This document shows positions 6,206-9,200 of a stretch of 64,000 nucleotides of DNA, piece by piece; the first letter of the stretch is position 1, and each line of letters begins with the position of its first letter. This DNA comes from Rhynchobatus australiae (lineage: Eukaryota). The stretch spans positions 58,769,072 to 58,833,071 of the forward strand of contig JAUZTB010000002.1 of NCBI GenBank assembly GCA_034780895.1, given 5' to 3'. Made by a program: the position numbers.

Positions 6206-9200
6206 CTAAGAGAACAGATTAAACAATGAGAAAACAAAAAAATCAACAGATCCAAGAAAATTCACCCAAACAAAATTTGGTGAATGATCAAGAATGAAAA
6301 TGTATATCCTCAAGTTATGGAAGAAATCGCAGAATAATGGTGTAAGCAGGTGGTCATGAATGTTTTCTATGAGTTGTCCTGAAGGTATGGCAGATGGCAT
6401 CCCTTAAATATTCTTGCCACATTTCAGTTCACTGCACCCTGTGTTCACAGGTCAGACCTCAAGGTTTGGCGGAGTAAGTAATTCACTAATTTCTTTGAAC
6501 TATTGTGGATGATCTCTTACATAAAAACAAATTTACAAGATAATTTCAATTTTCTTGATTGTGAGGTACACCAACTCACCATTGTACGTTGTCTCATCTT
6601 ATTATATCTCTGGCTGGCTGATTTGATTGATGAGAACCTCAGGACAATTCTGGGCCACCACCATACGAAGGTGAAAATTGCCCTGTGAGTCATATTCATG
6701 GACTGACCCTCAACTGTTCCTCATGCTTGTCTGTGAAGCTGGTGCCACCTTGTGCCAATACTCTGAATAGGTGGAATTCAGATTGGCACTTGGGCTAGAG
6801 GCAAGGCCTCCTGCAGGATCACCAAACCTGGGGATTTTGGGAGCTCTTTATAGATCTTCCACATTCAACAAAACTTCATTTGATGCCAGTTAATTCAATT
6901 CAATGAATTGATTAAAAAGGGATAAAAGGCTGACTTAAATCTGGACAAATGCATTACCAAGCTGTTTGATAAGCAGAACGTGTTCATGTTTTATCTACAG
7001 CTGCAAAAGTGAAACTCACTAGCTTTGCTGAGACTTGTTTGTTTACCACTTACCCTTACTACGTATACTCTGACCAAAACATTGATGAGATCATTGCTTG
7101 GGATACCCTGGAACATTCCAAACGTGGGTTCATAACCTGCTTCCCGAGCGATATCATCTGGCAGAGGCACCTTGTACACGCAGACAGAGCCCTGCATGCA
7201 TGTTTAAAAACAGAAGGAAGTGAAAGATGACAATACTCCAAGAAATGTCACACAAGTAAGTAAATATATAAAAATCTACATAAATTTACCCATCAAGGCC
7301 ATATAAGCCTAGATTTTTGAGATGGCTGCTTCAAGCAATTTTATTTGCAAAATTAACTGAAGTGAAAATTTATGTAAGGCTGCACCTAATCAGAACATTA
7401 TTCCCAAACATAGTGCAGGCAATTAGGTATTTCAATTGAACCTGACAGCCACAATGCTGTAAGAGACAGAAACAGTTTGTACATGCTTCATGAACTCCAC
7501 ATAGTCTTTGATCATCTCAAATGCCAAGGGGAAATATTACTATACATTTGCTTTTTCTGTTGTGATTTAAAATTCCACCATAAAAATGGGGTCACATCAA
7601 ATGATGAACTGTACGAGCAACTATTTTCCTTTTAAATAACCAACTATTGAAGCATGTTACATTTAACAATGGAAAATGTAATGCCTCTCCCACAGATTAT
7701 ATAGACTTTATCCCTTTGCCCCAGCAACAAATTGAATGGGACTGGCTTGATGAATCAGCTGGTCTACTCCTTCCTCTCACATTTATGTATTTGTTGGAAC
7801 ATTTGGATGTCACTTGATAAATTAAAATTTAGCTCCCAGAAAGCAACGTCTCCACCAACTGCACCATCCAGACTTAGCATGCTTTAGGGAATGCCGGAAG
7901 GCATTATTGCACTGATACAAAAGTTCAAAGCTGCTCACATACACAAAATAGTTGCTTGATGTAGCCTTAACCTACTTGGACGTAATTTATGCAGGTCTTT
8001 TCCAAGGGTGATCTTGATTAACACGACATTATGACCTCACAAGTAAGAACATGGTTTCTTTCTGGCAGTGCCTGCTACAGCTCATTGATTTATAAACACT
8101 TCCCATTATACCCTTATCATGCTAGTTAAAACCACTATTTCTCTATTAGTTTATAAACTGTTAATAATTTCCACTAGATCTTGATTTTATGTGGGAACTA
8201 AAACTAACTTTATCATAATACTCTTATCAAACATCTTTAGTTGAAGAGATATATAATCAGAAAATGAAACTTAAATATTTGCACCATACTACAAACTTTA
8301 ATATTGAATCTACTGATTCGTTTCCCTTATAAATTAATTTTATAGGCCTCTATAAATCCTGAATGCTAGGAATATTGATTTTATATTTTGACTGTTTGAA
8401 TCTTTGATGCTTCTTCTGGCCAGGTATAGGAATCAATTACAAAATCATCATAATCAGTGCTGTAAATGAGGGAGCTGATCAAAGACCGTTTGTCTTCAGG
8501 TTCTGGGTACACAGATGCCATTCCATTTTTGAAAGCATATTCAGCAACCTGAAAGGTAAAGCAGAAAGATGACTGAAAAATCAAACTGCAGATACTGGGA
8601 AGCTTGACGATTGCACAGGGTACTATGTCAGGGACACACACTTGTTAAATGATGACAAGATCATAAGAAACTGATAGCAGTATAGACCAGGAGGATCTAC
8701 AAGCCTGCTCCACCATTCAATAAGAGTATGGCTGAACTTGGCCACAGCTCTACTTCTCTACCTGTTCCTGTAACTTTCATCATCCCTAAAGAGTGAAAAT
8801 CTGTCCATCACTTCATTGAATACAGTAAAATTCTGATAATTCACTACCTGACCATTTGGAAATCCCAATGGTTAGGCATCAGGCTCAGTGGGTACNNNNN
8901 NNNNNACCAACCTCTGCCCTCCATTCCACTCACCAGGGCCCGGGTTGATGTGCACCCTTCAAACTCACTTGGTTCAGCTCATTGCATTACCTTAAGACTT
9001 ACTGGGGCCTTGTTTCCTATGCTCCCTTTAAATCCACCAGATTCAATGAATAATATTATTATCCTAATGTGTAACCTCTTAAAAAAAGTTAAAGTATGTT
9101 GGAGTATTTATAGAATACTGTGCATAAATTTGCTAGTCTGGCACCAAGGTCTGTCACAGTTCATCTATCATCTTACCTTTTAATCTATACTCCAGTCCAC

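What the first reader, a model, noticed from the sequence alone, without database searches (positions are those of the whole stretch)
8381..8580. Intact malic-enzyme terminal exon inside otoferlin intron 35, same strand and in frame with OTOF
Seen: a 168-nt open exon (55 aa plus TAA) after a strong polypyrimidine tract and CAG, with no N gap between it and OTOF exons 36-38. I found no other malic enzyme exon in the visible sequence. Established: the peptide has the C-terminal signature of NADP-dependent malic enzymes (ME1/ME3), a family unrelated to ferlins. Exon 36 starts in phase 0, so the exon 35 donor (hidden in a gap) must be phase 0, the same as this exon. Inference: splicing exon 35 to it would give an otoferlin lacking C2E, C2F and the transmembrane anchor and ending in a malic-enzyme tail, i.e. 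exon capture making a soluble isoform. Alternatives: a duplicated or transduced gene end (not a processed retrocopy, since the intronic acceptor is kept), an interleaved ME gene with its other exons in gaps or upstream, or a chimeric contig.
Basis: partly seen in the sequence, partly recalled or inferred. Interest (0 to 1): 0.88.

Follow-up and report, generated by a model that had tools for sequence, protein, structure and literature searches.

The report
Stray malic-enzyme last exon in otoferlin intron
An intact copy of the last exon of a ray's malic enzyme gene sits alone inside an intron of the hearing gene otoferlin, most likely as a duplicated gene scrap or an assembly error and not as part of a new fusion protein.

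Summary
On the minus strand a 168-nt exon (8548..8381: 55 codons plus TAA) follows a pyrimidine-rich tract and CAG. It is the C-terminal exon of the cartilaginous-fish "NADP-dependent malic enzyme": 52/55 identical to Hypanus sabinus, E 4.6e-25, and it ends at the family's own stop.

It lies in a roughly 3.5-kb otoferlin (OTOF) intron, on the OTOF strand and in phase 0 like the next OTOF exon. The same N-free contig (5313-8895) carries three downstream OTOF exons. No other malic-enzyme exon, intact or decayed, is visible in the window.

The window comes from a ray, not a human. Its OTOF is 96% identical to that of Pristis pectinata.

Splicing OTOF to this exon would be in frame, but nothing shows that it happens. 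No OTOF-length protein with this tail turned up.

My odds:
- Recent DNA-level duplicate of the malic-enzyme gene's 3' end, a bystander pseudo-exon: about 0.4.
- Chimeric contig in a visibly poor draft assembly: about 0.28.
- Native malic-enzyme gene interleaved with OTOF: about 0.05.
- Functional fusion isoform: about 0.05.

No vertebrate genome DNA or RNA data could be searched, so copy number, read support and expression remain open.

The parts
8549..8580 (-). 3' splice site region: pyrimidine-rich tract and CAG acceptor (AG at 8550-8549)
   Evidence: 17 of the 20 bases before the CAG are pyrimidines (my count).
8384..8548 (-). Malic-enzyme terminal coding exon, 55 codons, phase 0 start
   Evidence: translation; PDB ME3 E 2.4e-17; Hypanus sabinus ME 95%, E 4.6e-25; profile E 3.4e-28; no residue private to the window copy.
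8381..8383 (-). TAA stop at the same position as the stop of ray malic enzymes
   Evidence: The Hypanus, Rhinoraja and Narcine proteins end with the same ...IQTVKI.
8297..8302 (-). ATTAAA poly(A)-signal motif 78 nt after the stop. Consensus match only.
   Evidence: No A-run follows it.
7340..7345 (-). AATAAA motif 1035 nt after the stop, about 150 nt before the next OTOF exon
10752..10838 (-). Visible part of the upstream OTOF exon (Pristis residues about 1404-1432). Its last 16 codons and its donor are hidden.
10491..10749 (.). N run hiding the end of the upstream OTOF exon and its donor. Not filled.
7054..7191 (-). Next OTOF exon (GSVCVYK...VYVVR, 46 codons). It starts in phase 0 after CAG, and its donor GT is at 7053-7052.
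5313..8895 (.). N-free contig block that holds the malic-enzyme exon together with three OTOF exons
   Evidence: N runs; OTOF HSPs at 7194..7081, 6205..6041/6077 and 5684..5511.

Best explanation
This is a stray genomic (unspliced) copy of the 3' end of the ray's ME1-type NADP-malic-enzyme gene. It carries the intron acceptor, the last 55 codons, the stop and a nearby ATTAAA. It lies in a roughly 3.5-kb intron of an otherwise normal otoferlin gene.

I think it most likely arrived by a recent DNA-level duplicative insertion from the malic-enzyme locus. In other cartilaginous fishes that locus lies on the same chromosome as OTOF.

It is a bystander pseudo-exon. It encodes no enzyme, because 13 of about 14 exons are absent. 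At most it could act as a cryptic, in-frame terminal exon that truncates some OTOF transcripts.

Shown: the anatomy, the homology, strand and phase, the absence of other ME exons, and contiguity with OTOF exons. Inferred: that the copy is real, that it is recent, that it arose by DNA and not RNA, and that it is not used.
For: It is the only ME piece in the window (all other HSPs E >= 0.88; next best E 3.6 among 3149 pieces).

Similarity ends at the AG acceptor, so the copy derives from genomic DNA and not from mRNA.

It sits in one N-free block with three OTOF exons.

The identity ranking of the exon follows the species ranking seen for OTOF:
- ME exon: Hypanus 52/55, Rhinoraja 51, Mobula 49, Narcine 48, sharks 44-47, chimaera 39.
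- OTOF exon cores: Pristis 96.0%, other rays 93.5-93.8%, sharks 89.7-91.1%, chimaera 85.8% of 1187 residues.

None of the 55 residues is private to the window copy. That fits a young copy.

No repeat shared with the rest of the window lies between the ME exon and the OTOF exon. So there is no visible cause for a misjoin.
Against: The parent ME locus of this species was not seen. Copy number, the extent of the duplicated segment and its age are therefore unknown.

No target-site duplication or carrier element was found.

A copy with no private substitution is equally what a chimeric contig holding the native exon would show.

The assembly is poor:
- An in-frame TAG sits in a conserved OTOF exon about 40 nt from a contig end.
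- A 100-N gap is flanked by overlapping contig ends.
- Contigs break at repeats.

A strong acceptor plus a poly(A) motif in the intron of an essential hair-cell gene should be selected against. That argues for a very recent event, a polymorphism or an artefact (inference).

A shared chromosome is also expected from old vertebrate linkage of ME1 and the OTOF region. That linkage is recalled, not tested.
Confidence: 0.4

Rival explanations
1. Assembly chimera. The contig 5313-8895 wrongly joins OTOF sequence to the native 3' end of the ME1 gene, so nothing is inserted in the real genome.
For: The draft is visibly weak:
- 31 N runs in 64 kb.
- A 100-N gap between contig ends that overlap by 10 nt, with no residue missing.
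- An in-frame TAG in a conserved OTOF exon near a contig end.
- Contigs ending in interspersed repeats.

The ME exon lies only 347 nt from the contig end at 8895. It has no private substitution, exactly as the native exon would.
Against: No N and no recognisable repeat or low-complexity stretch lies in the 1189 nt between the ME stop and the OTOF exon. The scaffold continues into further OTOF exons on both sides. A misjoin within unique sequence is uncommon (general knowledge).
Confidence: 0.28
2. Native last exon of an ME1 gene interleaved with OTOF. The other ME exons would lie beyond coordinate 64000 or in N runs, and this exon would be the gene's only terminal exon.
For: The exon is intact and as conserved as bona fide orthologues. 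ME and OTOF appear to share a chromosome in 3 of 3 comparable species. 5046 bases of the window are N.
Against: 55 kb upstream on the same strand hold more than 20 OTOF exons and no ME exon. ME transcripts would have to skip all of them.

The hosting intron is only about 3.5 kb, leaving 1.2 kb for a 3' end.

The chimaera ME and OTOF RefSeq numbers shown are about 7,450 apart. That suggests non-neighbouring genes, if numbering follows position (recalled convention, weak).

Confidence: 0.05
3. Functional exon capture. OTOF transcripts splice from the hidden donor to this exon and end there. The product would be a soluble otoferlin of about 1503 residues with a malic-enzyme tail.
For: The exon is on the same strand. 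Both sides are phase 0. The acceptor is strong, and a stop and ATTAAA lie 78 nt downstream.
Against: No transcript data were available. No protein with this architecture appears among the 23 candidates or the 89 representatives.

The 55 residues are only the C-terminal latch of a 580-residue enzyme and are not a domain of their own (recalled from malic-enzyme structures). Pfam finds no family in them.

Retention of every ancestral ME residue is not what a new function would select for.
Confidence: 0.05
4. RNA-mediated copy: 3' transduction by a retroelement, or reverse transcription of an unspliced pre-mRNA end.
For: Transposon-like sequence appears to start about 140 nt upstream of the acceptor (roughly 8690-9040). 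This is recognised from memory only. A further repeat-like ORF lies at 9339-9584.
Against: No A-run or microsatellite tail follows either poly(A) motif. No target-site duplication was found. The ORF at 9339-9584 is on the opposite strand and has no Pfam match.
Confidence: 0.03

Closest known systems
Terminal exon of the cartilaginous-fish 'NADP-dependent malic enzyme' gene (ME1-type by NCBI naming; e.g. Hypanus sabinus P0002, Rhinoraja longicauda P0003, Mobula hypostoma P0006)
   Same: The 55 residues are 52/55, 51/55 and 49/55 identical. The stop is at the same position, and the residues aligned are the last 55 of 544-583-residue enzymes.
   Different: Here the exon stands alone. The Pfam malic N-terminal and NAD-binding domains (PF00390, PF03949) that every database relative carries have no counterpart in the window.

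The ME1-versus-ME3 assignment is not settled. The Mobula protein scores 987.8 bits with the ME3 chain 8e76, 972.5 with the malic enzyme chain 1gq2 (pigeon cytosolic enzyme, recalled) and 935.6 with the NADP-dependent malic enzyme chain 7x11. It is 75-78% identical to proteins named ME1 and 74-76% to proteins named ME3.
Unprocessed (duplicated) pseudogene fragments lodged in introns of unrelated genes
   Same: It is a genomic-DNA-derived partial gene copy that keeps its intron flank and lacks most of the gene.
   Different: The fragment is unusually small and is perfectly intact. Its parent copy and its boundaries were not seen.
TRIM5-CypA (TRIMCyp) type exon capture (recalled, not looked up here)
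   Same: A foreign coding piece inside a host gene, on the same strand, could be spliced in as a new C-terminus.
   Different: TRIMCyp uses a retrocopy of a whole domain and has transcript and functional proof. Here the piece is an unspliced fragment of a domain, with no transcript evidence.
Intronic polyadenylation giving truncated soluble isoforms of membrane proteins (recalled general mechanism)
   Same: An acceptor, stop and poly(A) motif inside an intron, upstream of the exons that encode the membrane anchor.
   Different: Use of the site is not shown. Known cases use host-derived intron sequence, not another gene's exon.

Membership tests
Malic enzyme gene (ME1/ME3): terminal exon | Sequence homology to the enzyme's C-terminal segment, ending at the family's stop | tested here: met
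   E 2.4e-17, chain residues 553-604 of 604; E 4.6e-25, 95%; profile positions 521-586, E 3.4e-28.
Malic enzyme gene (ME1/ME3): complete gene at this locus | Exons for the malic N-terminal and NAD-binding domains upstream on the same strand | tested here: not met
   Searches found none in the visible 58,954 bases. The 5046 N and the sequence beyond 64000 are unseen.
Processed retrocopy | Similarity continues into the preceding exon without an intron, plus a poly(A) tail | tested here: not met
   Similarity stops at the AG: 2 of 11 upstream residues identical. A pyrimidine tract is present. No A-run.
Exon capture / chimeric terminal exon | Same strand and compatible phase with the host gene | tested here: met
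   Both acceptors are phase 0. The host donor phase is inferred from the next exon, because the donor itself is hidden in N.
Exon capture / chimeric terminal exon | Chimeric transcript or protein observed | not testable with these tools
   No RNA data. The protein searches gave only malic enzymes (19 of 23 candidates significant, all ME; 89 hits, longest 473 aa). Clustering could hide an isoform.
Interleaved or overlapping genes (ME1 with OTOF) | ME1 and OTOF adjacent in related genomes | tested here: inconclusive
Assembly chimera | A gap or shared repeat at the junction, and lack of spanning reads | tested here: inconclusive
   No N and no in-window repeat between 7195 and 8380. Reads were not available. 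Assembly defects are seen elsewhere in the window.

The most novel reading that the evidence does not exclude
In this ray lineage a duplicated ME1 terminal exon has been captured by otoferlin as an alternative last exon. The product would be an anchorless otoferlin (residues 1-1448 plus a 55-residue malic-enzyme tail) lacking the last C2 domains, expressed in hair cells or electroreceptors.
Probability: 0.05. Interest if true: 0.6.

Novelty: new member of a known kind. Interest (0 to 1): 0.25.

Why it matters
If the insertion is real, it is a clean and apparently young example of a gene end dropped into an essential synaptic gene in a splice-competent, in-frame position. That is the raw material for exon capture, or a mildly harmful cryptic terminator. 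It would be easy to test in ray RNA-seq.

If it is a misjoin, it is a useful warning about this assembly. Gene models from it could report a false otoferlin-malic enzyme fusion.

Either way it does not change what is known about otoferlin or malic enzyme function.

Tried and rejected
- translated the wrong frame and gave stops. One search corrected it.
- Pfam finds no family in the 55 residues. It also finds none in seven ORFs from the intron and elsewhere. One search failed because one reference contained stops, so I dropped that reference.
I made no other attempt and used only the contig lengths already shown.
- Self-comparison of contig 5313-8895 with the window gave no repeat. The short direct and inverted repeats in 7195-8895 do not flank the exon.
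- A paper search for otoferlin plus malic enzyme returned 4 papers. I saw only the listing and the start of each abstract. All are proteomics inventories, and none concerns a gene relationship.
- The representative-library search gave only short malic-enzyme fragments.
- The two unnamed 593-residue transcripts were out of register in the tail comparison, so I ignored them there.
- dN/dS could not be computed, because no orthologous nucleotide sequences were available.

Full report
**What is there**

Read on the minus strand, positions 8580-8549 are a pyrimidine-rich tract ending in CAG. By my count, 17 of the 20 bases before the CAG are pyrimidines. An open frame of 55 codons follows (8548..8384, VAEYAF...IQTVKI), closed by TAA at 8383-8381. 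My first translation was in the wrong frame.

After the stop there is an ATTAAA at 78 nt (8302-8297) and an AATAAA at 1035 nt (7345-7340). No A-run follows either motif.

**What it encodes**

- Against PDB chains the peptide matches the extreme C-terminus of mitochondrial NADP malic enzyme: E 2.4e-17, with query residues 2-53 on chain residues 553-604 of 604. The malic enzyme chain 1gq2 (pigeon cytosolic enzyme, recalled) scores 1e-14, the NADP-dependent malic enzyme chain 7x11 1.9e-12, and NAD-dependent ME2 about 5e-8.
- In the large protein collection, 19 of 23 candidates of 98-2000 residues were significant. All are malic enzymes of cartilaginous fishes, by name or by Pfam domains. Hypanus sabinus is 95% identical, Rhinoraja longicauda 93%, Mobula hypostoma 89%, Narcine bancroftii 87%, sharks 81-87% and chimaera 75%.
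- Pfam has no model for this tail.
- The full-length Mobula enzyme is slightly closer to proteins named ME1 in amphibians, paddlefish, gar and lungfish (75-78%) than to proteins named ME3 (74-76%). It scores almost equally with ME3 and ME1 structures. I therefore call it ME1-type by annotation only.

**The host gene**

tblastn with Pristis pectinata otoferlin (P0022) maps residues of about 401-1725 onto the minus strand from 63297 down to 376 in 27 pieces, in order and without frameshifts.

Over 26 exon cores (1187 residues) the window is 96.0% identical to Pristis. It is 93.5-93.8% identical to Hypanus, Hemitrygon, Narcine and Mobula, 89.7-91.1% to two sharks and 85.8% to the chimaera. The window is therefore from a ray related to, but not the same as, Pristis pectinata. 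It is not human sequence.

The malic-enzyme exon lies between two OTOF exons:
- The upstream exon has its visible part at 10838..10752. Its last 16 codons and its donor are hidden in N 10491-10749, which I did not fill.
- The downstream exon is at 7191..7054. It starts GGC directly after CAG, which is phase 0.

As assembled, the intron is about 3.5 kb. The ME stop is 1189 nt from the next OTOF exon. The block 5313-8895 has no N and carries the ME exon plus three OTOF exons.

**Is the rest of a malic-enzyme gene here?**

No. Three ray and shark enzymes gave one significant tblastn hit each, and every other HSP had E >= 0.88. A profile built from 24 named malic enzymes, run without filters on 3149 six-frame pieces of at least 12 residues, found only this exon (E 3.4e-28). 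The next best piece had E 3.6.

So there are no intact or decayed ME exons in the 58,954 visible bases. The 5046 N cannot be judged.

**Kind of copy**

Similarity to malic enzyme ends exactly at the AG. Only 2 of the 11 residues read upstream of it match Hypanus. The copy therefore carries intron sequence and is not a processed retrocopy. I found no poly(A) tail and no target-site duplication.

None of its 55 residues is private to the window when compared with 12 distinct chondrichthyan tails. Bona fide orthologues carry 0-3 private residues among elasmobranchs and 10 in the chimaera. The two unnamed transcripts were out of register there and I ignored them.

The identity ranking of the exon follows that of OTOF: rays, then sharks, then chimaera. 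The exon is thus either the native one, or a young copy of it.

**Where is the malic-enzyme gene in relatives?**

The tools give no vertebrate genome context. The only handle was the length of the longest contig listed for each protein. It is the same for ME and OTOF in the 3 species where both are given: Hypanus 167,937,546, Narcine 254,621,664 and Cetorhinus 175,289,989. The Mobula entries are from two different species and the Scyliorhinus torazame entries from different assemblies, so neither pair is comparable.

I read this as the same chromosome. It does not show adjacency. From memory, ME1 and the OTOF region are also linked but far apart in chicken and frog.

**Weighing the explanations**

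*Interleaved native gene.* Malic-enzyme transcripts would have to skip more than 20 constitutive OTOF exons across more than 55 kb. I consider that very unlikely (0.05).

That leaves a real small duplication or a chimeric contig.

*For a real insertion:*
- There is no gap between the ME exon and the OTOF exon, and no repeat shared with the rest of the window there.
- The scaffold runs on into OTOF on both sides.

*For a chimera:*
- The draft is poor. A TAG replaces a conserved tyrosine codon in an OTOF exon about 40 nt from a contig end.
- A 100-N gap separates contig ends that overlap by 10 nt.
- Contigs break at a SINE-like repeat.
- The ME exon lies 347 nt from a contig end.
- An unchanged exon is exactly what a misjoined native exon would look like.

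I put the real duplicate at about 0.4 and the chimera at about 0.28.

**The fusion idea**

A splice from the hidden OTOF donor to this exon would be in frame. It would give otoferlin 1-1448 plus 55 residues. That product would lack the C2 domain at 1488-1578, the dsrm-like domain at 1579-1666 and Ferlin_C with the anchor at 1897-1988.

Nothing shows that this happens. No such protein appeared or among the 89 representative hits, the longest of which is 473 residues. A 90% or 50% clustering could hide an isoform.

The tail is a fragment of a fold and not a domain (recalled from malic-enzyme structures). A strong acceptor with a poly(A) motif in this intron would more probably be a cost to OTOF expression than a gain (inference). 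I give a functional isoform 0.05.

- I searched exons one at a time. I neither built nor searched a joined multi-exon or OTOF-ME model.
- The paper search for otoferlin with malic enzyme gave 4 papers. Judged from the listing and abstract starts only, all are proteomics inventories.
- Supplements were not consulted.
- As a result, the parent ME locus, the orthologous introns of other rays, read support and expression all remain unchecked.

Noticed in passing
window 43922-43924 (minus strand): An in-frame TAG sits in an otherwise conserved OTOF exon where Pristis, Hypanus and Narcine have tyrosine (…SKDIL*SVVDEE…). It lies about 40 nt from a contig end, so a base error in the draft is more likely than a real nonsense allele.
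   Followed up: partly
window 43784-43883 and flanks: A 100-N gap lies inside an OTOF exon with no residue missing. The 10 bases before the gap are repeated after it, so two overlapping contig ends were set apart by a conventional gap.
   Followed up: partly
window 10491-10749, 59128-59981, 20937-21036, 44773-45620, 14263-14710: Several N runs abut or replace OTOF coding sequence. Pristis residues 1433-1448, about 476-495, about 1297-1321, 805-831 and 1343-1364 have no visible counterpart. I did not fill them.
   Followed up: no
window 10400-10490 (+) and 20860-20936 (-): Two copies of a SINE-like interspersed repeat align over about 75-90 nt, at roughly 85-90% identity by my count. Each is cut off by an N run, which shows that the assembly breaks at repeats.
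   Followed up: partly
window 21201-21049 (minus strand): The OTOF exon here matches a 51-residue stretch of Pristis isoform X3 (ATLMNGYLALANG…). Hypanus X2 and Narcine X1 align only from 21141. This suggests an alternative upstream acceptor or an alternative exon extension.
   Followed up: no
protein search, (not in the window): Among the best 120 relatives of the Mobula malic enzyme there is no cartilaginous-fish protein named mitochondrial NADP-malic enzyme (ME3). ME3 of coelacanth, amphibians, reptiles, birds and ray-finned fishes is listed at 74-76%. Cartilaginous fishes may keep a single NADP-dependent malic enzyme.
   Followed up: no
window 9339-9584 (+) and about 8690-9040: Repeat-like sequence fills much of the same intron. 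It includes an 81-codon open frame at 9339-9584 that has no Pfam match. I recognised it as transposon-like from memory only.
   Followed up: partly
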